From Tubiluchus corallicola (Eukaryota; Animalia; Priapulida): a stretch of DNA of 64,000 bases. Location of the stretch: positions 310,001 through 374,000 of the forward strand of contig JAQGDQ010000141.1 in the NCBI GenBank assembly GCA_030141605.1, in the 5' to 3' direction. Shown here piece by piece: positions 7,805-38,714 of the stretch. Positions within the stretch are counted from its first letter, which is position 1; each line of letters begins with the position of its first letter. The notes under the pieces are model-generated. The model saw nothing but the letters and a program-made list of their open reading frames with translations. It was not told where the DNA came from and did not search any database. The position numbers were made by a program, and so were the translations under genes.

Positions 7805-10800
7805 TGTGTGTGTCGGTGTGTGTGTGTATGTATATATGTTTGTATGTATGTATGTTGTATGTATGTATATGTATATACATATACATATACATATATACAT
7901 ACAAACAACATACATACATACAAACATATATACGTATACACACACACACATGTATGTACATGTATATATATATACACATGTATGTGTATGTACATAAGCA
8001 TAAAAACACAAGTGCCAATATGGCAGCAACTGTGATAGTTATACAGAAGTAAAATTAAGCTTTAGAAACACAAATATACGTAATGAAAAGTGCAAAATAA
8101 ATTATCAGAAATCGAATCTTTCATTTTTAGATGCCTTTAACACATAGTTAATGTAATTTGACTTACTCAACAACCTTTACAGATTCATAGTCCCACTCTA
8201 TGTAACCAGTTTCTGGTGACACTCGAGCACCAACCCAAACTTCATTATCCCACATAGAATACGAAAAATCTAAACAAAATTAAAAAGCAATTGAATACCT
8301 GAATACAAGTTACCTGTTAAAACAAGACAAAAATTAACATTGATTAAAAATACATTAGCGAAACAAAATACAATAAATGACATTAATAATAATAGATAGT
8401 AATTCATTCATTCAATAGTTAATAGTAATAAATAGACTTCTGGAACTATGTTTACTATATGAAAAATACTGAACGACACAATATAAAATACATGTGCTAT
8501 ATGAAATACTGGAAGGTAAATGTCAAAAATTATTGTAGTTTCAATAGAGCGTAAAAACATAAAAAACAGTATTGCTTATCATACATGTAAGTTATTTGCT
8601 TATTTATGTACAAACAAGAAGCAACACTGTCTTTGAAATGTCTGTTGTTTTGGTAAACAAAATCCTAAAATGATTCCGTCTGGCCACAATTTACATGAGC
8701 TAATCTTCAAAAATCTAAAGACTACTTACACTAACAAAGTTGAAAAAAATTCGAGACAATATAAAAGGCACGTTTTTTAAAAAAATATACATAAAAAATG
8801 ATTTCACCTCCCACAAAAGCTAAAAGATGAGCATTGCTCTCCCTACATATCTGTTGTGCTTCTTCCCAGGTAGAATGGTCAGAATAATTACGGTAACAAA
8901 ACGTTTCAAAAACCTCAAAACCTTGAGGACATATCCATTTCTGTCCGTCAGAACCTAGAAATTTTCACACAGTATAAAACCACAGCACCTTGAAACTACG
9001 TGTGACTCATTTGAAACATTTGGTAGCAACAGTGTTTTCAACTAATGTATTTAAAACATTTTTACAGTTCAGGCAATTGATAATGATCGTTAAAAGGTCA
9101 AAGGTTAAGTGTACCAGACAACGCATTTGTGTACACCTGACAACACCTTGCAGCACATGTTATTGTAATAGTAACAGTTTTAACAGCTTTTAGTACCTTA
9201 CCTAGTTCATTTTTTCTTGTTCCCTAGCAAGAACCTACTAGTATATCACTCTATGCACAGACTAATGCATAATTAAGTAACGTTCACGTAAAACAACTGA
9301 TGTTACTGAACTCGTGCCGCAGACGGCATTGCTTTACACACATATCACATGACGGTTGTAGTTAATAAGCGTTGCTGTGGTATACTTAAGCCTTGGCCCA
9401 CAGCTACTGTGCGTGCACACAACAAAATCGAGAAAAGGCTTATTAGTTTAACAGAAAGGATCAGCTAATTAACTGCAGCATGGAGTCTTTGTCCTAAGAA
9501 GAATATATCATATAATCTCTGACTTAGATTGCAATCTGGTGTGAGATATTCTGCATTCTTATCATAAAATTTCAGTTAACATATTTACCGTGATGTGTGT
9601 CACAAAACTAAAGCTGTATAACCCTTACTACAGATTATATGTGACCTGTTATAATAGTTATAATGTTTCATGCATACTTTATCTCAAACTCTAATTCAAA
9701 TGGTCAAAAAAACTTACAAAGCGACCACTGTGACACTACAAACTTGTATGCATATTTGGAAGAATGACCATTATGACCTCTGGGTGACCTTTCACCTTTG
9801 ACTTCCAAAAACACGTCATCTTATTGATATTTATTTCACATATTTTTGACATATCTCCCATACACAAGATATTCTACATAGTTTGGGGAAAAATTAAAAG
9901 TCATTGGATCTATTCCCACCTACCCTTTTTACAATAATCAGACCTCTCACTATTTACAGACACATAAACCAAAGTCTAATAACTTTAGAAAGTAAAGAAA
10001 GTTCTGCTGCATGCTGTTTCAAGGATTGCCATGAAGTATCACATTTAGTGGCCAAGTGCAGTCAACCTTGGGTATAAGGTACTCGCTTATAAGGGACCAC
10101 CAACACTGGTTCCGATTTTTCGTAACATTTTTCCTATGTAAAAATCTTCGTACATAAGGTACTCGGTTATAAGAGATGATATCTTCTGGTCCCGCGTAAT
10201 AGAAACCCAGGTAAATTATATAAGGGATCCAATGATCAAAGTGAAATTGATTGATTTTTAACCTCAATTTTTTGCAAACTCGGCCTTTGTACAGCTCGTT
10301 TTCCGCGGTCATACATCTTGCATCACTGAAGGAGCTTCCTACATACCGTTTGCACTGAATGTGTAGCAACAATCCGTAAAAATATGGGCAAAAGTACAGA
10401 AAAGTACAGATCTAGATACACACTCCGTCTTACTCAACTTCAGCTACAAGAGACATCGGATATAAGGGATGGTTTTTTCCGGTCCCGAAGTGTCCCTTAT
10501 CTCTGAGGTTGACTGTATACTACCTAATACTGTTTTCATACAGCATCCATACCTCATCAGCATCCATACACTCCTCCTCAAAACACAAGTTCGGTGGGCA
10601 GGACATGTGATTCGCATGCCAGACAACCGCATTCCAAAGAAGATGCTCTATGGAGAACTTGTGTCTGGAAAGAGAAAGGTTGGACGACCAAAGAAACGCT
10701 TCAAGGACAGCCTGAAGGCCTCACTCAAGGAGCTCAGCATGGATATCCGCTCAATGGAAACCCTTGCACAAAATCTCTCAGCATGGCGGAGTGCCATCAC

Positions 10801-13800
10801 CACAGGGGCTAAGACAGCAGAGGCGAAAAGAATTGAGGAGGCAGAGGAGAAGCGCAGGAGACGCAAGGCATGTGACACTGCCCAACAACAGGTCAATACA
10901 CCCAGCCTCACCTGTGCCAAATGCCAAAGAAGTTTCCAGGCCAAAATAGGCCTAGTCAGTCAGCTTCGAGCTCAACAAAGGAATGACAACCCCCCAAACT
11001 GACCCTTTATCCATGTCACTATCGTCATCTTCGATTCGAAGGACGAACATCATCATCACTGTTTTCATAAATACAGCTACCTTAGGCTAAATTGTAACCA
11101 ATATGAGGTAGCTCACTGTACATTTGCGAGCTCCACATGTTCTTATCGTTGTTGAATTCAAAATGTTTTAAATGACATACTACAGCAGAAAGTTAGTTTT
11201 ACTTTGCAAGTTATAACAAAATTAATACATAAGAACAATGATACAATTTCCGAATTTTACTCACGCTAAGCTTGTTAACTATACAGATTCGGCGATAGGA
11301 AATGATTCTTTCTCCAATGACACAATTCAGCAATAGGATATGATTCTTTTTTCAATGATACGATAACGATGATCATTTGTTTACACGATATGATACGATA
11401 CGATAAAGTATTTAGGACGATAAAGTGGATTAATGTATACATACGTGTAATCTAAGACAAAGTTATCTTCTTTGCTTAGTCACAAAATAATATTAACATG
11501 TGAGCTGCAACTGATTACATATAGATCTACTACTATATTTATATATATATTAATAATATATTTATTTCTGACTACACATAACTGATAAAGGTGACTCTAC
11601 GAATACCGCACTTAGCATTCACGGGTGACTAAACTGACTGAAGACAGCCATTATTGCAAGAAGAGAGTGCAAGAAGATTATTCAAACAACCTATAAATAA
11701 CTCTTTATTTAAGTTTGTTCCATAAATGAAAAAGCAAAGCGAAATGATTTTATAAATGTGAGTGCAGTGATATAAATTCGATACAATAGCGACATTCCTA
11801 GAATAGTATCGATACGATAACGATAAAAACTAATTTTTCGTATATCGATAAAAACCGTAACGATAATTATCCATAGGTTTTGTTAACATCATTAGCTTAC
11901 GCACTCTGCATAATGGCATACTGTTTACTGCTTTACATAACCTACCTGGGTAACTGAATTCAGTCAAACCTAAAATGAAAAAATACAACATATAATTAAT
12001 ACAAGAATCTTATGTTGTCATAGCTACTCACATACCATTAATTAATTATGACTCTGTTTTTACAAAACACTGTCATAATTAATTAATAATATCATTAGTT
12101 GCCAGCTAATTTGGAAAAGCATTGATACGATAACTATTCTCATACTTTAACCATTATTTTAGCTACCAATAAAATTTCAATAGTTTTTATTACCTAGAGT
12201 AAAAGAAAGAGATAGAGGAATCAATTTGTGACTAATAAACTGTTCTTAATGTTACAAAAATATGAGAAAAACAACAAAGCAGCATTACTATATACATAAC
12301 ACTAACACTATTTACATTAAATAGATATAACAAAATAGTAATTAAGCTTTAGAAAAACACTTTAAAAGAAACTAATAACCTGTATAATAAGGGATACCTT
12401 TTTTAACAAAATTGCAACACACTTACCGCACTGTGAAGGGGATGTGTATGGTAACTCATCAGAGCCATCACTACAGTCTTCTACGCCATCACACACTTGT
12501 TCAGACTCAATACACTCCCCAGATAATGTACATTGAAATTCGGGGCACCTGAAATACAGTAAAAATCATGGTCAAAAATTGTCAGGATAAAATTTTATAT
12601 TACAATAACATCCACACACACGGGCACGTGCACGCATACACCACGCAGCACACGGGCACATGCACGCACACACCACACACGGGCACGTGCACACCACACA
12701 GGCGTGTGTGCATGCTCACACTGTAACATGAGCTTAATATATTAATCTGTTTTACTTCAGTCAGGTTTTAACATGTTTTTCGCATATATTTATTAATTAC
12801 TTCACATACCTCACATTCGTGCAACACAAATTCAAGGAGGAAGTATAGCTAAGTGGTCACAGTGTGTGTGCAGGGCTATGAAGTAGCACTGAGCCTGCTT
12901 AGTACATAAGTACTTCAAGCTATCATACTGTCTTCACATATTCTTTTCATTAATTCATGATGTACAAATTTATATAATATGCACCCAATGAGTGATCGAC
13001 ACAAGGTCAGTGTCTCATCTTAGAAGATTGTCCTTGATAATGAACTAGATCCTCGTAGAACTACATGCTCGTAATTGGCTGCGAAAATTTGAACAACCGA
13101 TTCCACAAAATGCATGAAACTGTACAGAAAAACTTACATGACAATTCAGCAGTACCGCTAGCTTCACACACCTATTCATACGGAACTATGTTTAGACAGT
13201 TCCCTTTCCTTGGAAGGACACCACCATTCCAGGGAACAACCCCCCCCCTCGGCGATCGTCTTGGGTGAACCCTCAAGATCGAAACACTTTCTAGACTGTG
13301 CACTCCAGTCACCATCCTAATCAAAGTTCAGTGTATACTGTCCGTTTTTTCTCAAAGATTCTAAAACAAATATCGTACGGGGAACTTTGGTATGGACCAC
13401 GGCCACTTGGATACTATGGCAGACCTATTTTTAAATATCTTTATTTTAAGTATCTTTATTTATCACCTTTTTACAGGAAGAAAAACATGGTGCATAAAAC
13501 GATAATATGATACAATGTAACAAAATTATTATGATGATTAATTTATCCGAGATGTGATGTCAAACTTAAAATCAACCACCCTGGTTTAGGTTTAGCTATG
13601 ACTGCAATGCTTGGAGGTACACTGTTAAGGAAAGAGCTCGACAGTTTGGACAGAGAGTATTAAAGAGAAGAGGGAAAGGAGAATAGGCGCCAACAACAAC
13701 AACCACCTGTCACTGGAGACAACTTCCCAGCATGACATTTGTGTCAAAGTTTGAGCTTCCAGGATAGGTGCTCTTCGCCCACCAGGCTGTAGCGGATAGC

Positions 13801-17974: not shown

Positions 17975-18373
17975 GGGGGAAAAAACACGAATGACATTGT
18001 TATACGTTTAGTTGGTGCGATGGGTATGGGACCTATGAGTAATATGGAAATTAATGTTTCTCATCGCATTCCATCAAAGAAAGGAGTGCCACATATTATT
18101 GCTAAATTCGCAAGAAGGGGGGGGGCTAGAGGTGATATATACAAACATCGCAAAGATTCCCCAAAACTAAACGAAATAGGATATGACTCGAATAGCCGTG
18201 TGTTTATTAATGAGTGTCTAATAAAACGCAGAAAGGAGCTACTCAACAGATGCATAGAATACAAAAAAGAGCTCGGATATAAGTTTGTCTGGACAAATCA
18301 TGCCAGAATATTTACGAAGGCAAATGAACAAATGAAGCCGTTTGAAGTGAAATCTGAGGACGATTTAAAATAA
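17975..18373 (+). mobile_element. CR1/L2-type LINE ORF1 C-terminal fragment
   Basis: SHRI...IIAKFARR...RVFINECL.KRRKELL...KKELGYKFVWT resembles the HRL/IIvKF/vyINEnLT/YKfVW pattern of invertebrate CR1-like ORF1 proteins. Confidence 0.65.
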
Positions 18374-20700: not shown

Positions 20701-22374
20701 GGTTCTATAATAGACAATAAATTACTTAGTACTATGTTCTTTACCATACGATTCACTTCAAATTTTCAGATTATTTTCATTACTTTTTTTTCTTTCACTG
20801 TGTGGGACAATCTAGCAAACCCTGCTTTTTGATTGCTCGCAACACATTTACATTTGTATATAGGTGAACAGTGTGCGAGGCTTTTCTTGTGCAGAAACAA
20901 TAAAAGCTTTTTCGTATTATGTTCATTGTAGGCCCTTTCACTATACATTGTACATGAAACTATTGTAAATGTGTAATGTGAAACAAGTGACTTATGACTT
21001 ATCAAACAACTACCTCCTCACCAAACACTTATCAAGCCGATGCAGTCGGGCAAAACAAACATTGGAAAAATACATGTGTACATAGTAATAGTATAACCCA
21101 GAAAGGTAAACGTACTTTACGTGTAGTTGAGGTATGTGTACGTTACGCAGCAAACTCCTAAATGTACTCAAAAATCAGAGCCTGCCAACTGTAACCACCA
21201 TGCTGTTCAAATAACGCTTGGCGCTCTCTTTTTTTCAAAACCAAGTGTTGCTAGTAATATCAAATAAAAAGTTAGCACATTGAATCATAAAATTACTTAT
21301 CAGAACTTGCAAACACAGGCGTAACTTGGCCTAAATGCAGTAGTCACGAAAAACACTGCTGGTGATAACAGCAAGAGATTGAGATCAACGTTGAGAATTA
21401 ACTCTGTTATTTTAACTCAAGTTTAAATCTGTTCAGGAATATGTACTGTGATAAATAAAAAATTTTGTTGCAAGCGAACGCTTGATTTTTAATGATTCGC
21501 CTCCAAATATTTAACAGACACCAAATCACCAAAGCACACAAAAACACAAATGAAAAAACCTTCGGTATACACAAGCTCTGCAATACTCTATCTACACTAT
21601 ACCATGCATGCACATTACTGAAAATCCAAAACTAGGTGGATGCATTTTCTGAGTTATTCAATGTTGCAGTGAAGAATATGATGTAATAATAAAAACTGTA
21701 CAAAAAATGTTTGTAAACAGGAACCTCAAGTATGACAGTCACTAAGTGTACCATATACTGCTTTGTATACAATGGTAGGCAACAATGCTGGCACCATGTG
21801 GCTGTTTTTAAAAACACTAAGAAATTTTTCGAAAAAGCTGTGTGCCAATTGCTTGTATCAGTATGGAAGTATAAACTTTTGCTTTGAAATTTGACAATTT
21901 AAAAGTGCATCATTTGTCAAGAATTTGTGACAACTAATAACTTTTATAGTGGACGATAAACAAAATTATTATTCATCACATCTGCAACTGTATGACTGAT
22001 CGCTTTACAATAATGACAGCAGGCATATAAAGATAGTATATACAAAACAATATGTCTAAAACATGACATATTTTTATACAGGGCTAAAAGATGATACACG
22101 TATTTTATTACACACATAAAACTTACATCCAAATCGCATTATGATCAGTTGGTTGTAGTCATAAATCAACGCCTGGCGGCATTTTCAAACATTATACATT
22201 ACGTGAAAAAATGAAAAGGAGAGGTAAAGAAAACGCATAACACCTGAAAATAATCACACCAACGATAATTAATCAATTAGCAATAAATATTTTGCTGTTT
22301 ATTTTAAACCTGTTTCAATTTACATAAAACTTTTCCCATTTGTGTCCACCCTTCAGTATTCCCGTACTCCCAGA

Positions 22375-25300
22375 TTACTTTGCCTTTGCAGCCTTGGCTT
22401 GAGCTTTCAATACCTTCACAACGATCTTTTGCTCTTCAATCAGAAAGGCTCTTATAATCCTACAAACAGACAAGCAAATATATCATGCTGTTATTGAATA
22501 CATCTGCACAAGTTAAAGCCATAAAACACGTCGCATTTAATTAACACTGATAACACTATGTATGCGATTCAATATTTCGTTGTCAAAACATTATGAGCAT
22601 GGATGAAATCGTTTATGGACAAGCATTTAATTATGTTTAAATTACAAGCTTCTCACTTTTAATTACATCAATGAAAAATGAAAAGCAGACCAGTAAAGAA
22701 ACTGACACGGTAACTTAAGCACTAAATATGTATTTTTTTATGTACAATTTCTTTACTGGTATGCTTATTCATTACCTATTTGGCTTCTGTTAACTACTTA
22801 ATTAGCACATAATAGGCTTTGTAATATAAACTGGTTGTATTTACCACTGATGTTGACAGCAGCAGCCTGTCGAAATGCTTGGCATGATTTTAACTTTTTA
22901 ATGTAAAAGCTTTAATAAAGTTGTGTTGTTTTTAACTATAATCAAATTTTGATACCAAATTTGCAGGAGGAAATTGCAAAAAAAGTTGGAATTGAAATGC
23001 AGCATGGATTTGAACCAGAGACTTTTTGGAAAATTTGGAATACAACACAAAATAAAAAAACACACAAACAGGTAGATGTATACATAAATACACAACAAAT
23101 ACATACTTTGTGATGTGGTACAACATTAAAAACATAATCTTACAAAATTAAACATACCTGGTCCGCACACAAGCTGCACATCGTGATCCTCCATACGTTC
23201 GTGTGACCGTCTTGTGCCGTTTCGAGAGAGACATAAGCTGTTTTGGTCTAGCAGGAGTGATCTGCAAAAAAGCAGATTTACAAAATCAAAAAGAGAGCTG
23301 GGTCATTATTACACTTAGTTCACAAACTGCAAGTGCCAAGTTTGAAACCTAAATGCAATATGAAGACTTCTGCCTACTGTGTTTTGGTACTGTTCTGACA
23401 AATGAACTTCAAGGAAAGTCAGTCGATCATGACATTTTAACTAACAGCTCGAAAATAAATCACATGATCGATGATTGCTTAATATAATAACAGCAAGAAT
23501 TTCACTTCTTTCTGCTATTTAATTAGTGTAGGATAAAAAGATACATCCTCAATTAAATGTAAGATAACGTATAAGATAAAGCAACAGTAAAAAACGTGAC
23601 ATTCTAATTTCATTGTGACGCAACACCAGAATATATTACAATGGATCATCATTCAATCATTGATCATTACTGAAGGTGGAGTCAATGATTAATCGTAAAA
23701 ATTAAGCCACTTCCCAAAAATACTGAATTTTGTTATTAACTAATAGACAGCTACTGGTGGCAAATTTGCGATGTAGACAAAGCTTTAATGTAGAATTTAT
23801 AAAAGAAAGATTAACTTCTGTGATACAATACACAATTAAGTGACGTTTGCCTACCATTAGGAATGAGTATATGTCATGCGGAAGGGTTTTTGTTTTCGAT
23901 GCACACGTTTGTTAGACCAGTGTTGTGCGTTACTTGTTACTGCAGGTATTTCCTATTGATTTTTTTATTTTGCAGCTCTTCTGAAGGTAGATAACACATA
24001 TGCATTCCGGATTCTAGGTAAACGCCACAAGTTAAGAGATTTACAGCAGACAGTAGGGCTACAACAGTTGGAATTTAGACTTAGTTAACAAGAAACAACA
24101 TTACAAGAAATGTTGATTAATGCTGGTTGGATTCATGAAATCTTCACAATTGCCAGGATAATAATAACTTATTAGCCATCACTATAAATTAAGTGGTAAT
24201 TGATAAAAGTTTAGCTAAGATGCCGGTAACAAAAATACATTACCCCTTTTAACTTTGTTTTGCAATCACCACATTTTGGTATGCTGCCTGGTTTCTTTGT
24301 GTAAAGGTACACTAATCGACCACCAGGAGTCTTGGAGCTGAAACGTAAAACATTGATATATTAACAATGACACAAATTTTACATCCATGTTTTCGGCATA
24401 GTACAGAAAATGAGGCAAGTGACTGATATAATGAAGAATAAAAAAAATTTTCTTTATGCTTATAAGTTTGTCAAAATTTGGATTTGGTTATAACCACACA
24501 AATTTGTAGGTTATCACAGTGTTATGGTAAGTGATACAAAGCGAAGTGACTAAGATACCCAAACAAACTGGAGCAGGGCAGACAATTATGGCCAAAGCTG
24601 ACAGCACAGTATGGTATGGTATGACTATTTATTATCAGAAACAAAGGTGGGATAATTTCCTCGAGGTATGCACGGTACGGTCCAGGTATTAAAAATCAAC
24701 AAAATTTCATGCTGTGTGTTCAGTGTAGCTATGTAACATTCAAGGAAGGGTATAACTAATATGGCTGCTACCACACAAGGCGACCAAAACTACATTACAC
24801 AATTTTTGTGGGACGGTAAATTATTCCATATTAAGCATCTGTACAGTCCATTAGCTTAACATGGATTTTCCGAAAAGTTACACTTAGTAAAGACCTGTCG
24901 CTGCTATTATTGATGCTTTTGACACTTGATTATTTTATGATCACATTAATATCTTCTCGAGCAACCTTGAATTTGACTCAGCTGTTGCACATATGATCGC
25001 TTTCAATGTGTAATGCAAAAGCAAAGGCTTATCAAGAGACTATGAGGCTTATCGTTTTTAAGAAGCCAAAAATTGTCAACAAGTCACTAATCAGTATGAC
25101 AGAATGATTTTTCACAACAAAGTACGAAAAAAGTATACATTTCAACACCGATAATAATGCCAAAACGTTTCTGATAATTAAATAATAGGTTAAAAACTTA
25201 ATTAAAATCAGACGAAACCAAATAGTGATGACATCACAAGTGAACATAATGATCATCAGCACAAACATTCCATGAGATTGTTGCACGCGTTTGCGAAAGC

Positions 25301-26215
25301 GATATTTGAAGTACGATAACATTCAGTGTGATAACCAAAATCTCGGCACATTATGTTTAAAATTAAAATTTCAACTTTACCGCCATGTTCACATACGTGT
25401 GAACTACATCACAACTGAACAACATTGAACTGAGAGGTACAGCACCTGCTTTTTGTGAAATGGGTTTTCGAGATGAAGGTGCTGGTGCCCATCTAACTAT
25501 GCCAAATTACATTTTATGGTAATAATTTTATCACATTTATAAGTCATTCCTGAAAAAATAGCATGTTCCCTTTCAGTATTTCACAGGATAGATTGTTTTG
25601 AGCTATAGCCTAAGATTTCATCTAGTTTTTGTAAAAGCTAATCAGGCACATGTCTATTGTACAAATTTTTTCACACAATACAGCCATCTAAAGTTATTTA
25701 TGCAGGGAGAATAAATATCAGTAAACTGGTACAACTTTCCTACAGAATGCAAACTGAGCTTCACGGCTATACACAACATGCCGTTGAAGATAAAAATTTA
25801 AATGCCAGATCAACAGACGCTAAGAACTGACAAGCACAACACACAGCTTCTAAACTTCATTTTGAAAATTTAAAACAAGAAGAACTTGAGTGTTTTTTAC
25901 ACGAAAATATATTGAAAAGCAATTGGGCTAACAACATCCTACTATGCAAGTTTTTCTACTAATGGGCTTTTGTGGTGCTACAACTTTTACTATAAATTTG
26001 GCAAAGTTTTGGCAATCAGTCACAGTACTGTAGTAATTGAAATTTTGTTAAACGGTTAAACTGTAAATCACATTAAATTTCAGCAAATAAAAAATACTTT
26101 AACACAGTATTAGTTAAGATTTCATAAATAAAGCAAGATAAGATACTCACATTTTCCGTCTATTTGAAGTTGTATTGTACGACAAACGTCGTCTGAATGT
26201 CAGCCGCTGCACCAT
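22375..26215 (-). CDS. RPL34: 60S ribosomal protein L34 (eL34)
   Basis: Exons 26215-26151, 24337-24244, 23261-23158 and 22459-22375 splice to [115 protein letters not shown]. Canonical GT-AG sites; AATAAA at 22303-22298; an acceptor (TTCTTTTCAG|AACATG) sits 3 nt before the ATG. Confidence 0.96.
25030..25640 (-). mobile_element. Copy of the 15088/47214 repeat family inside an RPL34 intron
   Basis: Reverse-complement similarity to 15088-15700; boundaries approximate. Confidence 0.6.
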
Positions 26216-26468
26216 GTTCTGAAAAGAATAACATAGTTGCAACTGAAAGTGAGAAAATTACTTTGTAAGATATTATATGTGTGTGCATTATTCTTAATAG
26301 TCTGGAGTGGTAAAAGCTAACAGTAATAAAACAAAAACGAATCGCATACACAGTTCGACTCCCTTCATCCTCGTAACGTTTATTTACAAATAAAAAAACA
26401 GTTAGACTCAACAGACTGAAATCAGAGCACTGTGACATCAGATCACTTTGATCAACCTCTGTCACAGC

Positions 26469-27171
26469 CAGGGCTGAGCGGATCAATTAATTTATTGCTA
26501 CGCAAAAAATTTGGTCCGCAGACTTGAAATCCACGTCGCTATTCATAGCGATCCACTACTGCGTTACTAAATTAAATTATATCCACGATTCGTCCCAATC
26601 CGCAATTCTGCTTACATGGCAATTTTTAATTCAAATCTGTATGATAATCTGCATTTCTACCTAACCTTGGTTTGAAAAAATAAAAATATTTAAAATGAGT
26701 GGAAATTGTACCCTGGTGTGCAGTGTGTCCAGGGGCTGATTTGATTTTCATTGATTAATTGCAACTGTAAGACAGGATATTAAAATGCTCGCTATCTGAA
26801 GTTATTGCATTATTTTAACATTAGTATTTTTAGTAGTCAAAAAAACATTTTACTACTGCTGCTGCTACTACTACTACAGTGCTATGTTCGTTTAATGATT
26901 ATTGAAGCTAATTATTTTTTTTTTCCTTGTCGTTCAACCTCGTAACTTGTGATGAGTAATAATTTGTCATTTTCTTCCATTGACATAGTTATCTATGGCG
27001 GATTAACAGTAATGAAAACCATAATCTCCAAATGTAAAAATCCAATCCGCCAATATTTTTGATCCCCATCTACTCCTCATTCTTCCTTATTTTCAATAGT
27101 AGATCCGCAATCCGATCTGATCCACAAAAAAGCTTGAGTATCTTACTTTCGATCCAGTCAACTCATCTCTG
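26469..27171 (+). mobile_element. hAT-type MITE
   Basis: Imperfect TIR CAGGGCTGAG / CTCATCTCTG; 8-bp TSD GTCACAGC (26461-26468) / GTCACAAC (27172-27179); ATCCGC subterminal repeats; homologous to 1-357. Confidence 0.7.
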
Positions 27172-29334
27172 GTCACAACACACCACAGTCCACTGCCACT
27201 GTAAAATATTGTCACCGACGAGAGCATTCCCATTGCTCAACCTTACTGCACAGAACCAATAGACAATGGATGCCCAGTACTACCACACAACCTTATACAT
27301 GGCTAAGTAGTTCTATGTGCACTAATGTAATACTAGCTCACTGTACAAAAAAATTACGAAGATACAAATTATGCCAGGCAAGCAAGCGTCAATAAGCAAC
27401 AAATCTTAAAAGTCGCGTTTGGTGGCAATACAGCAGCTTAAAGTTTTAGTGAGAGAACGCTTAGCACACCTAAGAGAATTTAGCAATATTAGTAGTTGCT
27501 TAGACTTTGCTGCAATATACTTTCACACAATTCTGCACCTAACTTTTACTGCATGCAGAAGCAAAGAGCAAATTAAAATGTCCAAAACATAATATTACCA
27601 AACTCTCAAGAACAGTAGTTTTATTTAGTAAAGAGAAGGGAAACTTGCTGACACAAACAAACTTTTAGTACAGAGTACACTACAAGATCCTTCCTACATA
27701 AGTCAAAATTTTCAGAACTTTCTAGCCTGAAAAATGAAACAAGTGCAAACCAATAATACTGGTAAGTCCCCTTTATAATGTCAACAACTTAACATTCATA
27801 TTTTTTCCAAAACAAAATGTCTGTACTTGCATATAGACATGTATACATTAACGCGCTTCATTATAATGCCAAAGTTTTTTGTCGTCCCATCTTAGATTCA
27901 GATTTTTTATTTTTTTCCCATAGGCAGTATAAAACGTTTGAATGTGTTGCAAAATAATAAAACCGAAGTGTGCCTACATCCTTTGACTGCATACCAATCT
28001 TCACGTTGTTGTAACATTTATTTTGAATCTTCACAACAGAATACAACTTTGGAAAAAAATTATTTAGATCTGACGCCAAAAACAATAGTGTGTAAAAAGA
28101 GATTTCCCAGGCGAATAAAAAAAGTGAACATAAGATTTTATAAAATGAACGAGAGCTGCTACACATTGAACTATTACCTGTATCGCATATACCAGAAAGC
28201 TGTGCATACTACAAGATAACGAGCCTAAATGAATATCACATGTAAAAAATACCTTCTGATTAAAATGAATTTCATCTAATTAACAGGAGAAATAATGGCA
28301 AATCTACGTAACTGCAAGACATATGTAGCTAATATGCAAGCAAAGCAACATTCTTCAAATTATACAAAATCCCCCTGATAGAATTAGAGGTGGCTGATTT
28401 GATAACTAACGTTATTCACCACCCCTTTCCATTTGTCTATTTTTTTAAATTATACTTATTTTTAATTGCATTATTATTGGGATGAAAAATAAATGATTTC
28501 ATTTTTTGATTAGAGAATGGCCAAAACAATGATAAAATCAGAGTATTACAAATTTATTGCATCAAAATATAAAATCAATTTATACAAAATGCAGTAAATA
28601 TAAAACAAATACAATGCAAATGCAATAGAAAATGGCAATTTACCAAAATTACACAATAAAGTTCAAGAACAAAAGCACCAAATATTCAAGAACAAAATAA
28701 ATTACAAAATAAGCAAGACGACTATTAGAGTTGCAGTATTAAACAGCTCAAGTCACCGAATTATTAAAATTTTCAACATTTCACTTAAACAAAACTGTTC
28801 AAAACAGTTTATGCAAATTACAAACATTTCACCTTTTTCCGTAAATTTAAAATAAAAATTACGATAAGATTACGTAATAATTGAGAAAAAGTGAAAATTT
28901 TTAAATCAAAATCAAACTCTATAAAAACTACTAAAACTGAAAGTTTGCGAAGACAAGTAATAAGCACATTAAATGTCACAAGATCAAGCATTTACATTGT
29001 AAATGAAACAAAAAAGTTAAATTTACCACTTGTTGAAAAAATGACAAAACACCTGCCACACATGTTATAAAAAGAACTTGAGCAGTCAAGTTGCATACCA
29101 TTGCACTTGTACCTTATGTATGAAGACACACAGCTTCTCTAAACCAGTACTGTTTAAAGAATGAGTGTAAAACAGTTACACGTGTATGAAAGATAAAAAA
29201 TGTGAAAGATGATGTTGAATATCTTCAAATTTATGCATATTTTGTTCGGCCTCTTAATGCTTCAGGCACATAAAATGAAAAACATTGATCGGCTAGTGCA
29301 TATTGTTAATTCAGATTATTATACTTCAAATTTA

Positions 29335-29752
29335 TATTTAGTTAGGCCTGTAAAACCTTATGCACAGTTAAAGCATAATACCATAACTGTAAAAGGGCCA
29401 ATCAAGATGCTTGTTACTTTCTTAGTAATTAGTAAATGCAGTAAACATGACTAATAACTGTCAGTACTAAAATTCTTACGCACACCAGTGTAAAGCATTT
29501 CTATACGCCTTTTTTGTTAAGTTCTAAGATAAAGATGTGATACAATAAATACCCATTTTCCTTCTGGCAAAGTCAACGAGACTACTACATATCGAGTCTG
29601 AATGAATGCGATCAATAATATTTAGTTAGGCCTGTAAAATCTTACGCACAGTTAAAGCATAATACTGTAATGGTAAAAAGGCCAGTCAAGATGCTCATTA
29701 CTTTCTTAGTAATTAGTAAATGCAGTAAACATGACTAATAACTGTCAGTACA
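29335..29752. repeat. Direct duplication of ~130 bp (about 29335-29468 and 29619-29752) in the putative CTPS 3' UTR
   Basis: ATTTAGTTAGGCCTGTAAAA...CACAGTTAAAGCATAATAC...TTACTTTCTTAGTAATTAGTAAATGCAGTAAACATGACTAATAACTGTCAGTAC occurs twice. Confidence 0.8.
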
Positions 29753-29967
29753 AATGTTTACATAAAAATACATATTACATAAGAATGATGTAAATGGAAA
29801 AAGTATAAAAATTGCATTGAATAAATAACGACATGCACTCTTCAATAATAAAACGAAGTTCAAGTGCATAGTTTGACAGCATTTTAAAAATTCAAAGCAG
29901 GAAGCCCCGCAATCAGTTAGCAAATAGCGAAGCTGTTTAAACACGAATCTCTTGATCAGTGAGAAAG

Positions 29968-31866
29968 CTAGGAAGCTCCACTATCGCCCAAATTATCCTG
30001 CTTAAGCTTTGGGATGTTTGGACAGGAAACAACATTCCTAAAAGAAACATTAGTGAAGCTCCTGCTGAGTGCTACAATTTCTTCATCACCGGAGCTCTCG
30101 TCCTCGCTATGGAGATCACTACGTGGAGATCCTCGGCAACCGGCATTGAGATAGGTCTGCAGTTTTCCTATTGATGCAAGAATAAGACCCAGATATGGCT
30201 GAGACGGTCGCATCGGACGAGAAGTATACTCCGGATGATATTGCACACATACGTAGTATGGATGATCATCAATCTCCGCAATCTCCATCCTTTCTCCATC
30301 GACATCATGACCGCAGAATCTCATGCCAGCATCTTCAAAGTGCTGGACAAGGCTTGGATTCACCTCATATCTGTGCCTATGCCTCTCTTCAATGTAGTCA
30401 GCATCACCATACAGCTTTCGAAGAACCGACTCAGTTGTTTTGAAGATTGTTCTCCTCCTGCCAAGTCTCATTGTGCCACCCATTTGCCCCGGATTGTGCT
30501 CAGGCATCTCAATCACGACTGGATGAGCAGTGAGAGGCTCAAATTCGGTTGAGTGAGCATCTTCCCATAGTAGTACATTCCTTGCAAATTCAATCACGGA
30601 ACACTGCAACCCCAAGCACACTCCTAGATATGGTTTTCTGTTTTCTCGTGCCCACTTTGCAGCAGCAATTTTGCCCTCTGCACCTCTAGCGCCAAATCCG
30701 CCAGGTACAATGATACCATTACTACCACATAGTTTTTGCCATGCTTCGTGAAACTTGACTGGATCGCTTCTCTTTGTGCTCTTTTCCAAGTCATCCGCCT
30801 CCACAAATTTTATTTCAAGTTTACGTTTACAAGCCAAAGATGCATGCCGTAAAGCTTTGACAACAGATGTATATGCATCTTCGAGTTGAGTATATTTCCC
30901 CACTAATGCAATGGTTACAGAATCATCTAGTTTTTCACATCTGTCGGCAAGTTCTTTCCATTTGTTGAGGAATTTCTTTGGCCTAGCACCAAAGACAAGA
31001 TTCAACCTGTCACGGAAATATTCAATCACACCCTGGTTTTGCAAAAATAATGGTACACGGTAAATGGAAGACAGATCGGGTACACAGATAACCTGGCTGC
31101 TAGGAACATGACAGAAATAACCAACTTTGTCTTTGACGCTTGGTTCTATAGGGGACGAACTTCGGCAGACTATCAAGTCCGGTGATAATCCAAGACCACG
31201 CAATTCCCGAATACTCGACTGTGTTGGCTTTGTTTTGTGCTCTCCAGTAGCCTTGGGTCGTGGTACCAAGCTAACATGAACTACACAAAAGTTTTCCTTT
31301 CTCACACGAAACTGAAACTGTCTGAAAGCTTCAACAAATGGCATGCCCTCAATATCTCCAATAGTTCCACCAAGCTCAATAATGCAAACCTCTGGCTCTT
31401 CATTTGAATTGTCAACTGGTATTCGAGCTACCCTTTCAACCCATTCTTGAATTGCATCTGTGATGTGTGGCACAACTTGAACAGTCTTTCCTAGGTAGTC
31501 ACCTCTTCTTTCTCTGTTGATAACATGCTGATATATTTTTCCAGTTGTAATATTATTATCTTTATGGAGAGTTATGTCAAGAAAACGCTCGTAGTTTCCA
31601 AGATCTAAATCAACCTCACCACCATCATCGAGAACATAAACCTCACCATGTTCATACGGAGAAAATGTACCAGCATCAATGTTAATGTATGGATCGATTT
31701 TTATAGAAGTAACACGAATACCACACGATTTTAATATGGTACCAATGCTACTGGCAATAACTCCTTTGCCTATTCCACTAATAACGCCTCCACTAACTAA
31801 AACATACTTTAACTGCGAATGCTGTGTACTGGGACCATTAGGCTCACATCTTGACACAGATGACAT
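29968..31866 (-). CDS. CTPS1: CTP synthase, single uninterrupted coding exon (first ATG at 31866; the ORF track starts at an upstream TTG)
   Basis: [53 protein letters not shown], and GATase motifs PGGFG, GVCLG (Cys) and QYHPE (His/Glu) are all intact; candidate AATAAA at 28558-28553. Confidence 0.96.
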
Positions 31867-32104
31867 CTTTACTGCAAACCTTTTTACAAGCCCCAACAGC
31901 GCATGCGTCTTAACGAATTTCCTATTGTTAAATCGCTATTTTCCCGCACTTCTGAATTTATACATCAAAAAGCACAATTCACAAAAAATAATATCATTAT
32001 TATTAGAGCTAACAATGCTTGTCAATCAGAAATGTTCAGCGACAAAAAATGCCACATCAGTTATCTGATTAAAGCAGATTTAACTGGATAATAAAAAGAC
32101 TTAC

Positions 32105-32135
32105 AAAATTCCTTGCTTAACATAGGCGAAAAGAA
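32105..32135 (-). promoter_or_regulatory. TCT initiator / 5'TOP non-coding leader exon (about 32133-32105) with a GTAAGT donor
   Basis: Minus strand reads TT-C(+1)TTTTCGCCTATGTTAAGCAAGGAATTTT|GTAAGT. TTCTTTTC matches the YYC+1TTTYY TCT consensus of ribosomal-protein promoters. Confidence 0.65.
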
Positions 32136-32138
32136 TTT

Positions 32139-32152
32139 GCGCCCTCTGCTGG
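32139..32152 (-). promoter_or_regulatory. CTCF-like core motif
   Basis: CCAGCAGAGGGCGC on minus fits the CTCF core consensus CCASYAGRKGGCRS; it lies 6 bp upstream of the TCT +1. Confidence 0.5.
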
Positions 32153-32329: not shown

Positions 32330-32993
32330 TAAGGGTGAGCATCGAGCATTCGAGTACGCTCAAATTAGCACAACTTTTCTGCAGTTTCTGTGCAAAATTT
32401 TTAACAAAATCTTTGTATGCATAATATGCATAATTTTTGTAAGAACACTTTTTACTACTGGTTCGAAAACTTGTTCGAAAGTCTTTTAAACTCAATTCGA
32501 ATTCAAAATACTGAAATTAGGGGTGAGCATTCTCTACCAGAAAGTGAATTCGAATCGAACCGAATTTGTGACTTTCGAATTTGAATCGAACCGAACTTCA
32601 GTGTTTCGAATTCGAATTGAGATCGAAAGATTTTCGAACAAGATTTCGAACCATCAGCAAAAATTAGTCTTACAAAGATCATGCATATCACTAGATTTTG
32701 TTCTGCAATAAAACGACTAGTAATTTCTTTAAAATTGTGTGCAGAAATCACAGCTAAATTATGCTAATTGCATGATGTTTCAATCGTTTTAGCGATAAAG
32801 AACATGTGTGATTGAAGTGCTGAATTATTAGAATCTATAGTTTTCGATTCGAATCGAGCTCGAACTAAAAAAAACTCGTTCGAATCGAACTCGAACGTTC
32901 GATGCTCACCCGTAACTGAAATTCGGTTCGATTCAAAAGTTGCAAACTCGATCCGATTCGAATTCCTTTTCTGGTAGAGAATGCTCACCCTTA
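32330..32993. mobile_element. hAT MITE containing a second copy of the same family (32518-32914) inserted in the opposite orientation
   Basis: Outer TIR TAAGGGTGAGCAT / ATGCTCACCCTTA with decayed TSD TTGTTGAC / TTGCTGAT; inner TAGGGGTGAGCAT / ATGCTCACCCGTA with exact 8-bp TSD ACTGAAAT (32510-32517, 32915-32922); TTCGAA subterminal repeats. Confidence 0.8.
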
Positions 32994-35289: not shown

Positions 35290-36640
35290 TAAATGCTCTT
35301 ACTAATCGTTAAATGGTATCTATTTCTGTTGTTTTTATATATTCTCTATCCTTACGTTATACTTATTTATTAGTTTTTCTGATTTTTCACAACTTAATGC
35401 ATGTTCTGTTGTACCTTACTGAATCCTGCATTTAGGACGTAGTAAATCTTCCCAATTGTTCCTTTGTAATTGCATTTGAATTCTTTCATATTTAATTTAA
35501 TTTCCATTGTTTTTACTATATCTACAAGACCACATTCTCCGATATATCGCCGTTTCTCATATTTCTCACCATCAAGAAATCTTAATTTTGTCATTCTCTG
35601 TATTTTATTTTTTTTTATGTTCCTATAATATTTTTTGATTTATAGGTATTTTATTTCTTTTTTCCATGCTGATGTTTTTAATTTCTCCATTTTTTATTCG
35701 CAAAATCTTGCCTTTCTTTCCATATTTGTCTACGTTTTCACTTATTTCTGAATACCAACAATCTTTACATGCCTGTTTTCTTGCTGAATTAGTACTTGTC
35801 TTGCTAATCTGTTTACATCTGAGTATATCAATGAATAATAAACAATTGCCTTTTTATAGTCAACCCATTTTTGCATATGCCTAGGCCATGAACCTGTTTC
35901 TACAAATAGACCCCAGTACGGGTGTTATTTTTTGAATGAGAATTCGTCTTAACATCTCCTTTTGTATTTTTTCAAAGTCTCCCATTCATCTTTTTTAATA
36001 TTCTCCCATTCATCTTTTTTAATATTCGTCCATGTTTCACAATTGTTCAATACTGGCGGAATTATCATTGTTTCATGCATAAGTAATCTTACTGTATTAC
36101 CTACATGTTGCTCATTTCCAATTCTCATCGTTTCTCTTATCATGTACTTAGCCTTATCCATTCTTTTTTCGAATAATAATTTATAATTGCATTTTGCATT
36201 TAAGCAGTCACCTAAATATTTATACTGGTCTGTCCTCTGGATTATTCCATTTCTTGGTTCGCCTTCTATTTCTTCATTATCCTTTTTCTTAGTAAATTTA
36301 GTTTTCATATACTTAGTTTTCTTTAAGCTAAATGTTAACTTCTTTTTGTTTTCTAATACTTTAAAATTTTCTATCGCTTTCTTCATTGTTTGTTTAGACC
36401 CTACAGCTATCACTTCATCTTCATAATTTATAACATCATTTAAATAGTCAAATTAGGACTTATACATGCATTTGAGAAATTTCTATTATTTTTTACATCA
36501 TGCAGTGTAATTGAACATAATTTTTGTCCAATAGGAGTGCCTTGTCCAATATTTTGATGTTTTCTGCTAATCCGATTGGGGTTTCAGTTATTACATTTTG
36601 CTTCTTTATTCATGTTATACACCAGCAATGAGTATAAAAT
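35290..36640 (-). mobile_element. Decayed non-LTR retrotransposon RT/C-terminal fragment
   Basis: Fragments GQGTPIG, FSLKKTKYM, YKYLGD, NNCETW and TKLRFL in broken frames. Confidence 0.65.
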
Positions 36641-37880
36641 TAAATGCGGAATTAATACACAATGCCTTTCTTGCAGTACGCAACAATTTTAAGAATCGGA
36701 AACCAAAACACAAGGATGTACAATTCCACATCCTACAATTTTGAGCGGATTCATATTATTAAAAATACTATCAACCAGTTCACCCCTTTAATAAAATTTG
36801 ACTCAACCAGCCATATACTTGTATCATACTACGTGATTGGCTGTTCTCGCAAAGCTTTAACAGCACTGCTAATGAACGCGCAGGACACAAGCACAAAGCT
36901 GAAACCATTAGTAAGTCGTGTCACCTCCATTTCAGGACGAATGTGAGAAGTTAAATATGTGAGTGTCTTAATTTATTTGTACTAATTGATCTCCTATTAA
37001 AAATTGTAGTGTTTTTGTTACTGAATAGAGTAAGTGTCGTCTCTTAATCGTTAAAGAGGGTTTAGTAAGCGAACACGATTGCATGTAATACAGTCGCTTT
37101 TCAATACGTTAAAAATTGTAACTGTTGAGTGTTGCAGATTGTAGAATGCCAAAAAACGTTCCAGCAAAATATTTATTTTGCTTTATTGCAATTGTATTAT
37201 GTAGTAGCCACAGAGCAATATTTAAATAAAAAATAATAGATTAACGTACCATTATTTGGTTTCTTTTTACCTGTGGAATTGTATTTATGATAAAAGTATT
37301 AATTAATAAAATGCAAGAATAAAAAATTACAAAATGAAGTACCATCAAAGTTAAAACAGGGGAAATTTTCACAAAAGCATGGCCAACAAAAATTAATTTG
37401 AGATTACAACTCTGTAGTATGGTATTGTTATGAAAATTCATAAGCTTGTAATAATTTTAAATTGTAGTGTTGTAATACAAATTTTGTTATTACACAACAC
37501 AGCAAAATTAGCCTCATGCCAGTGGAAAACAATAGTAATTTTCAGGCAAATGCTGAAATAACAAATCTGTTGCCATGACATCACAATAACATAAAAACGT
37601 TGGGGTAAACTGTAAATTTGCTGATGACAACACAAAAGATTTGGGGAAACATTTCAATTTTTTAAGAAGTTGTTAACCAATGTCAAAAGTATATAAGAAA
37701 ATCAATAGTTCACATTTATCATATTTATACTATTAAATGTTAAAAGTAACATAGATTAAATTATACTTATTTTTTGCAGGTTATTCTACTAGACGCTGCT
37801 TATGTGGAAGTCTCAGCAAGCCTTGTCTCACAGCATGTAAGATCATCCTTGTCGACAGCTGTAAACAATTAGAGACATAC

Positions 37881-38714
37881 ATGTATAATTCCCTGTCAAA
37901 CAACATGAATGTGCTAACATCACCAATATCATTACTGCACAGTGTTGACCTTAAAACAACTTCTGTACCTCCATCCGGCATGCCTGATCATACATACACT
38001 TTTAAGAATACAAATTTGGAAAATGAAAATTCTGAAATGTGGCACTGTGGTTCTCCCATGATTATGGACATAAGTGATGGAATAAAAAATGGAAAAGAAC
38101 CCAAATATATGAACTGGAACATTCAAACTGACATGTGGAATATTGGGCAAGAGTTGTGTTTGAGCACTGAAAAACATAATGGTTCTAAAATAAAGATTGA
38201 AGATATGGACATTTCACCTGTTTTTGTTAATAACAGGACACCATTATCACAGTTGACCGCTAAAATGACACTGTGTGATTCTGATCATAATTATAGTCAA
38301 AATGCTGTGTCAGACATCGAAACAAACTTTACGCTAGAAACAGCAAGAGTGATTGATCCAGATAAAGGAACGGATCATAGCTATGCGTGTGGTGATTTTT
38401 GCTTGACATCGATAATGGTCGGTGCTGACCACTGTTATAGTCGTTCTCTGGAAGCAATTATCGCATTGCCACCCCACAAGACTAAGGCGCTGGCTCACGT
38501 GCAACCGCTGGCTTACACTCAGTGGCCAGATATGAGACTGACTGAACATAACTATAGCAGTAATCAGGAACTAAATCGTGTGCAAAGCATGGAGAGTTTT
38601 GTGGCAAACATGGCTAGATCAAGATCAGAACATTTCGATCATAGTTATAGTCATAGTCAGACAGAAATTAAACAAGAGCCTGGAAGTCACAAAAGCAAAT
38701 GCACCACACGTTAA
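37881..38714 (+). CDS. Uncharacterised 277-aa protein with six [D/E]HxY (HCF-1-binding-type) motifs and two SUMO consensus sites
   Basis: Long ORF in AT-rich DNA; strong acceptor TTTTTTGCAG at 37779 with the frame open back to it, so the N-terminus may be longer; motifs DHTY, DHNY, DHSY, DHCY, EHNY, DHSY; IKIE and IKQE. Confidence 0.7.
   Translation: MYNSLSNNMNVLTSPISLLHSVDLKTTSVPPSGMPDHTYTFKNTNLENENSEMWHCGSPMIMDISDGIKNGKEPKYMNWNIQTDMWNIGQELCLSTEKHNGSKIKIEDMDISPVFVNNRTPLSQLTAKMTLCDSDHNYSQNAVSDIETNFTLETARVIDPDKGTDHSYACGDFCLTSIMVGADHCYSRSLEAIIALPPHKTKALAHVQPLAYTQWPDMRLTEHNYSSNQELNRVQSMESFVANMARSRSEHFDHSYSHSQTEIKQEPGSHKSKCTTR

What the first reader, a model, noticed from the sequence alone, without database searches (positions are those of the whole stretch)
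26215..32135. CTP synthase nested in RPL34 intron 1 and apparently sharing its TCT/5'TOP first exon
Seen: the RPL34 ATG is preceded by a splice acceptor (TTCTTTTCAG|AAC ATG), so a non-coding first exon must lie upstream on minus. I found no TCT-plus-donor candidate between 26220 and the CTPS 3' end. The first good one is TTCTTTTC...|GTAAGT at 32135-32105, just upstream of the same-strand, intronless CTPS ORF. CTPS has its own candidate acceptor (ATAAATTCAG| at 31952, ~153-nt intron) and poly(A) signal (28558-28553). Established: metazoan ribosomal-protein genes start at TCT initiators, and 5'TOP leaders confer mTORC1/LARP1 translational control. Inference: one promoter and one 29-nt exon produce two unrelated mRNAs, a ribosomal protein and the rate-limiting CTP-synthesis enzyme, through alternative 3' splice site plus poly(A) choice. 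This would couple CTP supply to ribosome biogenesis and make CTPS a TOP mRNA, possibly via a retrocopy that captured the host promoter.
Basis: partly seen in the sequence, partly recalled or inferred. Interest (0 to 1): 0.82.

Follow-up and report, generated by a model that had tools for sequence, protein, structure and literature searches.

The report
CTP synthase borrowing ribosomal-protein first exon
In this invertebrate an intact, intron-free gene for the CTP-making enzyme lies just upstream of the coding exons of ribosomal protein L34 on the same strand, and the two likely share one short first exon with a ribosomal-type start motif, which would put CTP supply under the same growth control as ribosomes; no RNA data were available to confirm the splicing.

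Summary
The anatomy is real: an intact, intronless 632-aa CTP synthase (31866-29968, minus) lies 3.75 kb upstream of the ATG of a four-coding-exon RPL34, which sits 3 nt behind a good acceptor. A perfect fly- and human-type TCT initiator (C+1 32133) with a GTAAGT donor 29 nt later lies 267 nt before the CTPS ATG. Such a pair occurs 3 times in 128 kb of strand, and in 12 of 2000 simulated 500-nt stretches. A CTCF-type motif abuts it. The exclusivity claim is too strong: a rival TCT exon sits at 27635-27599, and RPL34's acceptor tract is itself a perfect TCT. No RNA run was listed and neither laid run showed a splice joint, so neither junction is shown; synteny in a close relative could not be tested. 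Best reading (about 0.5): a retro-derived CTPS inside RPL34 intron 1 shares its TCT/TOP exon. The layout is the known ChAT/VAChT type, which this scan also noted for other gene pairs on other DNA. New would be a ribosomal-protein TOP leader lent to a nucleotide enzyme.

The parts
32140..32152 (-). CTCF-type motif ending 6 nt before the predicted start site
   Evidence: only match in the window at up to 1 mismatch, and exact (0.36 expected at 1 mismatch); exact matches 0.005 per simulated 64 kb; consensus and name recalled, binding untested
32105..32133 (-). predicted shared non-coding exon 1 (29 nt), starting C+1TTTTC (6 pyrimidines, TOP-type); holds an ATG at 32123 in poor context
   Evidence: matches both YYC+1TTTYY and YC+1TYTYY (PMC5580651); not shown by RNA
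31952..32104 (-). predicted 153-nt short intron (GTAAGT...TTCAG) to the CTPS exon; its removal cuts upstream ATGs from 5 to 2
   Evidence: T over A 0.24, p 0.017; unspliced in the DNA-like run X1
31867..31951 (-). predicted CTPS leader part of exon 2; contains E2F-like (31940-31947) and NRF1-like (31900-31907) words and a weak second acceptor at 31872
   Evidence: motif names recalled
29968..31866 (-). intact intronless CTP synthase ORF, 632 aa, Cys417/His544/Glu546 triad; Leu where relatives have the start Met, with an 18-aa N-terminal extension
   Evidence: (PF06418, PF00117)
28553..28558 (-). candidate CTPS poly(A) signal, first AATAAA/ATTAAA 1.4 kb after the stop
   Evidence: use not shown
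27599..27635 (-). rival RPL34 exon 1: human-type TCT, 37 nt, no ATG, donor TTG|GTAATA; fails the fly consensus, holds an AATAAA and lies within a possible internal exon opening at acceptor 27727
26151..26218 (-). RPL34 first coding exon (ATG 26215, 65 coding nt) behind acceptor 26219; the acceptor tract is also a perfect TCT (C at 26226)
24244..24337 (-). RPL34 coding exon (94 nt)
23158..23261 (-). RPL34 coding exon (104 nt)
22298..22459 (-). RPL34 last exon (stop at 22375-22377, AATAAA 22303-22298); 115 aa in all
32330..32993 (.). nested inverted-repeat (MITE-like) elements just upstream of the predicted promoter
   Evidence: I1-I3, I5; very high contig depth in run X1

Best explanation
An intact, intron-free CTP synthase gene lies on the same strand just upstream of RPL34's coding exons and is likely nested in RPL34's first intron, where it likely shares one TCT promoter and one 29-nt non-coding exon with RPL34. 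Predicted working: transcripts start at C32133; the single donor at 32104 is joined either to the far, stronger acceptor at 26219 (RPL34 mRNA, expected to dominate) or to the near, slightly weaker acceptor at 31952, in which case the transcript would be cut at the CTPS poly(A) site near 28540. Both mRNAs would begin with the same cap-adjacent pyrimidine run, so CTPS translation would rise and fall with ribosomal-protein mRNAs. Origin, inferred: a reverse-transcribed CTPS copy landed in RPL34 intron 1, lost the usual start Met and gained a new start and leader. Shown: ORFs, exon boundaries of the coding exons, motifs and their rarity. Inferred: start site, both junctions, poly(A) use, translational control, retro-origin.
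For: CTPS is intact and intronless, whereas the fly gene is multi-exon with an exon boundary near residue 56 (PMC3573105, passages). RPL34's ATG sits 3 nt behind an acceptor that scores like its three other acceptors (pyrimidine share 0.68 against 0.63-0.68); a non-coding exon 1 in human and mosquito RPL34 is recalled, not found in print here. The 32133 site fits both published TCT consensuses and is the only fly-type TCT with GTRAGT within 60 nt between 22,000 and 33,500 (3 in 128 kb; 12 of 2000 per 500 nt). TCT marks nearly all ribosomal-protein promoters but about 1% of focused human promoters (PMC5580651), so a perfect TCT in front of CTPS is better explained as RPL34's. A unique exact CTCF-type motif abuts it. 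The CTPS acceptor has 55 AG-free bases and is a little weaker (0.58) than RPL34's, as the expected output ratio needs; splicing removes 3 of 5 upstream ATGs. All 149 of 149 fetched homologues with the N-terminal motif keep Met where the window has Leu, so the 5' end was rebuilt. Minus-strand T-over-A skew runs without reversal from about 33,000 to 21,000 and flips outside (weak evidence).
Against: No RNA holder was listed and no splice joint was seen. The 32104 donor is weak on the exon side: -5.4 kcal/mol, 15th of 260 non-coding GT sites, -0.27 by a recalled matrix. Over the whole 4.2-kb non-coding interval such a pair arises in 5-12% of simulations. Rival starts exist at 27635, 29074 and 26226. 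The exon holds an ATG at +11 whose 6-codon frame stops 1 nt before the RPL34 ATG, unusual for a ribosomal-protein leader (the judgement is from general knowledge). E2F-like and NRF1-like words downstream of the near acceptor could mark a CTPS promoter of its own. Skew also continues about 1.2 kb past RPL34's own last AATAAA, so read-through could explain skew in the gap. In the one species where both genes were retrieved (Tubulanus) they lie on different contigs.
Confidence: 0.5

Rival explanations
1. Two ordinary tandem genes. CTPS owns the 32133 start, its 153-nt 5' UTR intron is the one intron left after its coding introns were lost in place, and RPL34 starts between the genes (best candidate 27635-27599) or directly at the pyrimidine tract at 26226 with an 11-nt leader.
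For: Human-type TCT inside a 14-nt pyrimidine run at 27635, 37-nt exon without ATG, donor of the same class and near-equal U1 pairing as 32104; perfect TCT at 26226; another large intronless gene (FGD-like, 1361 aa) stands in the same window, so intron loss alone is not special here.
Against: 27635 fails the fly consensus, its exon is AT-rich and holds an AATAAA, and it lies inside a likely internal or cryptic exon (acceptor 27727, pyrimidine share 0.79); an 11-nt leader is very short; a perfect TCT on a non-translation gene is rare; no CpG or skew signal of a promoter in the gap.
Confidence: 0.27
2. CTPS is nested in RPL34 intron 1 (RPL34 does start at 32133) but is transcribed from its own internal promoter around 31,950-31,890, so its mRNA carries no TOP and there is no shared exon.
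For: E2F-like and NRF1-like words at 31947-31900, typical of nucleotide-synthesis promoters (names and association recalled); the near acceptor is the weakest of the five compared full acceptors (0.58).
Against: The acceptor still has a T-rich tract and 55 AG-free bases; 153 nt is a plausible short intron; same-strand promoters 200 nt apart would interfere (inference); such words are also common just downstream of housekeeping start sites (recalled).
Confidence: 0.15
3. CTPS and RPL34 form an operon-like unit: one promoter, with RPL34 released by spliced-leader trans-splicing at the unpaired acceptor 26219, as for ribosomal-protein genes in Oikopleura.
For: In Oikopleura ribosomal-protein genes lack TCT, mostly lie in operons and are trans-spliced at unpaired AG sites (PMC6389100, passages); no strong exon 1 lies in the gap.
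Against: A cis donor is available at 32104; 2.3 kb separate the CTPS poly(A) signal from the acceptor; two paper searches gave no report of spliced leaders in priapulids (listings only, and the lineage itself is only a lead).
Confidence: 0.08

Closest known systems
Cholinergic gene locus: VAChT inside intron 1 of ChAT (PMC7524744, passages read)
   Same: Whole ORF in one exon inside the host's first intron, same strand, one short shared exon 1 spliced to two unrelated proteins that serve one process.
   Different: There the shared exon is proven by RT-PCR and the layout is shared across metazoans; here it is predicted, the host is a cytosolic ribosomal-protein gene, and the shared exon would carry a TCT/TOP control element.
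Host-intron retrocopies expressed from host upstream exons, e.g. mouse Taf9 in Ak6; 13 human and 14 mouse cases (PMC4772013, passages); Utp14b in the first intron of Acsl3 (PMC5750009, passages)
   Same: Intronless copy of a normally intron-bearing gene that would borrow the host promoter and 5' exon.
   Different: Parent gene status unknown here; whether any listed host is a ribosomal-protein gene could not be checked because the supplement was not held.
Drosophila CG6854/CTPsyn compound locus (PMC3573105, passages)
   Same: A CTP synthase locus whose 5' exons overlap those of a transcript for an unrelated protein (MADF-BESS factor).
   Different: In the fly CTPS is the multi-exon host; here CTPS is the intronless guest and the partner is RPL34.
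mTORC1/eIF4E-driven translation of PRPS2 mRNA and 5' TOP mRNAs (PMC4615141, passages; the PRPS2 paper itself seen only as a reference-list entry)
   Same: A nucleotide-synthesis enzyme translationally tied to growth signalling and protein synthesis.
   Different: PRPS2 has its own gene and leader; here the tie would be made by physically sharing a ribosomal-protein exon.
Metazoan CTP synthase (human CTPS1, PDB 5u03) and eL34 (PF01199)
   Same: Both proteins are ordinary members; best database match of CTPS 73% identity.
   Different: CTPS has Leu at the usual start Met plus an 18-aa extension (149 of 149 homologues keep Met).

Membership tests
CTP synthase | synthase domain PF06418 plus class I glutamine amidotransferase PF00117, Cys-His-Glu triad, unbroken frame | tested here: met
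Ribosomal protein eL34 | PF01199 across GT-AG exons in one frame | tested here: met
   3 of 4 exon peptides hit PF01199; all 4 align to named eL34 proteins
Shared-first-exon nested gene (ChAT/VAChT type) | guest ORF in a single exon on the host strand | tested here: met
Shared-first-exon nested gene (ChAT/VAChT type) | guest has its own acceptor and poly(A) signal | tested here: met
   sequence level only: acceptor 31952, AATAAA 28558
Shared-first-exon nested gene (ChAT/VAChT type) | guest lies inside host intron 1 (host exon 1 upstream of the guest) | tested here: inconclusive
   best exon-1 candidate is upstream, but rivals lie in the gap
Shared-first-exon nested gene (ChAT/VAChT type) | one exon 1 spliced to both products in mRNA | not testable with these tools
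   no RNA holder listed; both laid runs are contigs without splice joints
TCT promoter / 5' TOP mRNA | YYC+1TTTYY or YC+1TYTYY and 4-14 pyrimidines from C+1 | tested here: met
   32135-32128, 6 pyrimidines
TCT promoter / 5' TOP mRNA | transcription really starts at the C, and translation responds to mTORC1/LARP1 | not testable with these tools
   needs CAGE and polysome data
Retrogene in a host intron | no coding introns where orthologues have them | tested here: met
   window ORF intronless; fly gene multi-exon; human 19-exon structure recalled
Retrogene in a host intron | intron-bearing parent elsewhere in the genome, or its loss; insertion absent in outgroups | tested here: inconclusive
   no genome held; Priapulus CTPS not among 120 listed hits in either search; unlinked in 1 of 1 species tested
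Trans-spliced operon | spliced leader on the downstream mRNA; SL RNA in the genome | not testable with these tools
   no RNA, no genome; no Rfam hit in the window at gathering score

The most novel reading that the evidence does not exclude
This animal's working CTP synthase is a retrogene that captured the RPL34 promoter and TOP exon, so one start site and one splice-versus-poly(A) choice sets the ratio of a ribosomal protein to the last enzyme of CTP synthesis, and both are switched together at the level of translation by nutrient signalling: a hard-wired link between rRNA building-block supply and ribosome assembly.
Probability: 0.35. Interest if true: 0.75.

Novelty: new variant of a known kind. 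Interest (0 to 1): 0.5.

Why it matters
Growing cells must match nucleotide supply to ribosome production; in mammals this is done by signalling to separate genes (CAD, PRPS2; PMC4615141, passages). If the shared exon is real, an animal has made the link physical, by lending a ribosomal-protein TOP leader to CTP synthase. It would show that a retrocopy can acquire translational control, not only a promoter, from its host, and it offers a simple test of how a 3' splice-site versus poly(A) choice balances two housekeeping outputs. My searches found no paper describing an RPL34-CTPS link or a ribosomal-protein first exon shared with an unrelated enzyme (0, 11, 0 and 1 papers listed, listings only, none on this topic), but the library lacks most subscription papers. 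If the exon is not shared, this is an ordinary pair of neighbours.

Tried and rejected
Transcript evidence: no RNA holder listed; the two runs laid are contigs, and no splice joint showed among the listed joints (15 shown, 8 not shown; 2 listed, both unrelated). Run X1 behaves as DNA (one contig runs through an RPL34 exon and its introns, another through the 153-nt intron); X2 gave one 156-nt CTPS piece and repeats. This is no evidence for or against the junctions. Whole genome: none held. Metagenome collection: no exact match to the RPL34 exon start; none of 80 CTPS loci kept (of 570 confirmed, partial scan) had an eL34 match nearby, but these are distant, at most 67% identical and look mostly microbial or like transcripts, so this says nothing about animals. 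Synteny by accession and contig length: Priapulus caudatus RPL34 lies on a 38,908-nt scaffold, but no Priapulus CTPS appeared in the 120 listed hits of either search; Tubulanus is unlinked. A search with the CTPS C-terminal 70 residues gave 6 weak hits, none informative; 3 of the 6 were looked up and are unnamed. CTPS tree (44 rows chosen from 120 hits, quick search only): window on a long branch with no supported placement. snoRNAs as markers of intron status: no Rfam hit at gathering score in 64 kb, 3 weak chance-level hits in 21.5-34 kb. CpG profile gave no promoter signal that separates the models. Strand skew is compatible with one unit but also with read-through. Second CTPS acceptor at 31872, which would put the exon-1 ATG in frame with CTPS, was considered and judged poor (pyrimidine share 0.37, 6 AG-free bases). 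A paper on RPL34 exon structure was not found; the original TCT paper is not held. Earlier notes: none near this place or on look-alike DNA.
Full report
Anatomy. On the minus strand the window holds a 632-codon open frame at 31866-29968. It carries the CTP synthase N-terminal and glutamine amidotransferase domains, aligns without a break to human CTPS1 and keeps Cys417, His544 and Glu546. Its ATG lies 5.65 kb, and its stop 3.75 kb, upstream of the ATG of RPL34, whose coding exons are 26215-26151, 24337-24244, 23261-23158 and 22459-22375 (65+94+104+85 nt, 115 aa). The RPL34 ATG is 3 nt behind an acceptor that scores like the gene's other three acceptors. The organism is an invertebrate with no close database relative: best CTPS match 73%, no supported place in a quick tree of 44 rows. 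Earlier notes on this genome call it priapulid-like; the RPL34 exons match Priapulus well (21 of 22, 29 of 33) but a centipede about as well, so this remains a lead.

The candidate shared exon. At 32135-32128 lies TTCTTTTC, which fits both published TCT consensuses, YYC+1TTTYY (fly) and YC+1TYTYY (human) (PMC5580651, passages). From C32133 there are 6 pyrimidines, within the 4-14 given for TOP mRNAs (PMC4615141, passages), and a GTAAGT donor follows after 29 nt. A fly-type TCT with GTRAGT within 60 nt occurs 3 times in 128 kb of strand and only here between 22,000 and 33,500; simulations gave it in 12 of 2000 stretches of 500 nt and 50 of 1000 stretches of 4.2 kb (human-type: 28 of 2000, 116 of 1000). 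These criteria were set after seeing the site. An exact CTCF-type motif (consensus recalled) ends 6 nt before the start; it is the only match in the window and exact matches arose 0.005 times per simulated window. CTPS has a plausible acceptor at 31952 (55 AG-free bases, pyrimidine share 0.58); using it removes 3 of 5 upstream ATGs. The first poly(A) hexamer after the CTPS stop is at 28558. Since TCT marks nearly all ribosomal-protein promoters but about 1% of focused human promoters, a perfect TCT directly in front of CTPS, with an RP gene that lacks an obvious start just behind, is most simply RPL34's promoter with CTPS nested in intron 1.

What speaks against it. The donor has the worst exon side (TTT): U1 pairing -5.4 kcal/mol against -7.4, -7.6 and -8.3 for the coding donors, rank 15 of 260 non-coding GT sites, and -0.27 by a recalled matrix. 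A human-type TCT at 27635 leads into a 37-nt ATG-free exon with TTG|GTAATA (-5.1), the class of donor that RPL34 uses at 24243; it fails the fly consensus, contains an AATAAA and sits inside a possible internal exon. A fly-type TCT at 29074 has a CAG|GTGTTT 22 nt later, inside the presumed CTPS 3' UTR. The RPL34 acceptor tract is itself a perfect TCT at 26226, which would give an 11-nt leader with no upstream exon at all; I rate this low because a non-coding exon 1 in human and mosquito RPL34 is recalled, though my search did not find it in print. The 29-nt exon holds an ATG at +11 whose frame ends after 6 codons at either acceptor. E2F-like and NRF1-like words at 31947-31900 (names recalled) allow a CTPS promoter of its own. 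T-over-A skew on the minus strand is continuous from about 33,000 to 21,000 and flips outside, but it also runs about 1.2 kb past RPL34's last AATAAA, so it cannot separate one unit from read-through.

Outside evidence. No RNA holder was listed. The two runs laid are contig sets; neither showed a splice joint among the joints listed, and X1 behaves as DNA. No whole genome is held. A probe for the RPL34 exon found nothing in the metagenome collection, and none of 80 distant CTPS loci had eL34 nearby, which is uninformative for animals. Priapulus RPL34 was found on a 38,908-nt scaffold but its CTPS was not among the listed hits. In Tubulanus, the only species with both genes in hand, they lie on different contigs, so the pairing is not universal. 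The two junctions, the start site and any translational control therefore remain predictions.

Origin. The fly gene is multi-exon, with an exon boundary near residue 56 (PMC3573105, passages), so the intronless state is derived. All 149 of 149 fetched homologues that show the N-terminal motif keep Met where the window has Leu; the window protein must start further upstream, so its 5' end has been rebuilt, as expected after insertion into a new context. Run X1 also holds a second CTPS sequence, 84% identical over 31556-31797 (39 differences; the 11 listed are all third-codon positions), uninterrupted over residues 24-104, and by eye also with Leu at that position. It may be a paralogue or a relative's gene; either way the intronless, re-started form is older than that split, and the changes point to purifying selection.

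Comparison. The layout predicted here is that of the cholinergic locus, where the VAChT ORF lies in ChAT intron 1 and exon 1 is shared, shown by RT-PCR in ticks (PMC7524744, passages), and of retrocopies that splice to host exons (PMC4772013, passages; PMC5750009, passages). The fly CTPsyn locus itself overlaps 5' exons with an unrelated MADF-BESS transcript. This scan has noted the same kind of layout for other gene pairs on other DNA, including Atg13 in an mRpL53 intron (unchecked notes). Coupling of nucleotide enzymes to growth signalling is known through CAD and PRPS2; the passages I read in PMC13043699 and PMC8047918 did not mention a TOP on CTPS or a shared RP exon. Four searches found no report of this pairing or of an RP first exon lent to an unrelated enzyme (listings only); the retrocopy host table of PMC4772013 could not be read and may bear on this. 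A trans-spliced operon as in Oikopleura (PMC6389100, passages) is not excluded, but two searches gave no sign of spliced leaders in priapulids.

Verdict. Observation partly confirmed; shared exon about 0.5, separate tandem genes 0.27, nested with own promoter 0.15, trans-spliced operon 0.08 (my estimates). Full coupling through TOP control about 0.35. It is a likely new variant of a known kind: familiar architecture, but with a ribosomal-protein TCT/TOP exon as the shared part. One RT-PCR or one RNA-seq run would settle it. Interest 0.5.

Noticed in passing
window 29968-32111: In run X1 the contigs over the CTPS ORF and its 245 upstream bases have depth 58 and 45, while listed neighbouring contigs have 4-9; cover ends at the stop codon and inside the candidate exon 1. 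Extra copies, target enrichment or base-composition bias could each give this; the tool warns that depth is no copy number. Unexplained.
   Followed up: partly
window 31556-31797 (run X1, record 7): A second, diverged CTPS sequence: 888-nt contig, depth 190, 84% identical over 242 nt, listed changes all at third codon positions, different 5' end, no intron over residues 24-104. Paralogue or another organism; not resolved.
   Followed up: partly
window 53284-57369 (-): FGD-like gene (RhoGEF, PH, FYVE, PH) as one unbroken 1361-codon frame; relatives are recalled as having many introns, so this may be another retro-derived or intron-stripped gene.
   Followed up: partly
window 37881-38714 (+): 277-codon frame without Pfam match that holds six [DE]HxY words, the recalled HCF-1-binding motif; it follows an acceptor-like tract near 37780 and is probably the last exon of a larger gene.
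   Followed up: partly
window 32330-32993: Nested inverted-repeat elements about 200 nt upstream of the predicted start, very abundant in run X1 and present in X2; likely MITEs.
   Followed up: no
window 29334-29470 and 29618-29754: A 137-nt direct duplication (92% identical) inside the presumed CTPS 3' UTR.
   Followed up: no
window 27599-27726 (-): Possible 128-nt internal exon in the gap (strong acceptor 27727, donor 27598); could be a cryptic or regulatory non-coding exon of RPL34.
   Followed up: no
window 10469-11002, 18020-18373, 35949-36386: Frames that look like remnants of LINE-type elements by eye; one matches Baculo_FP_2nd.
   Followed up: no
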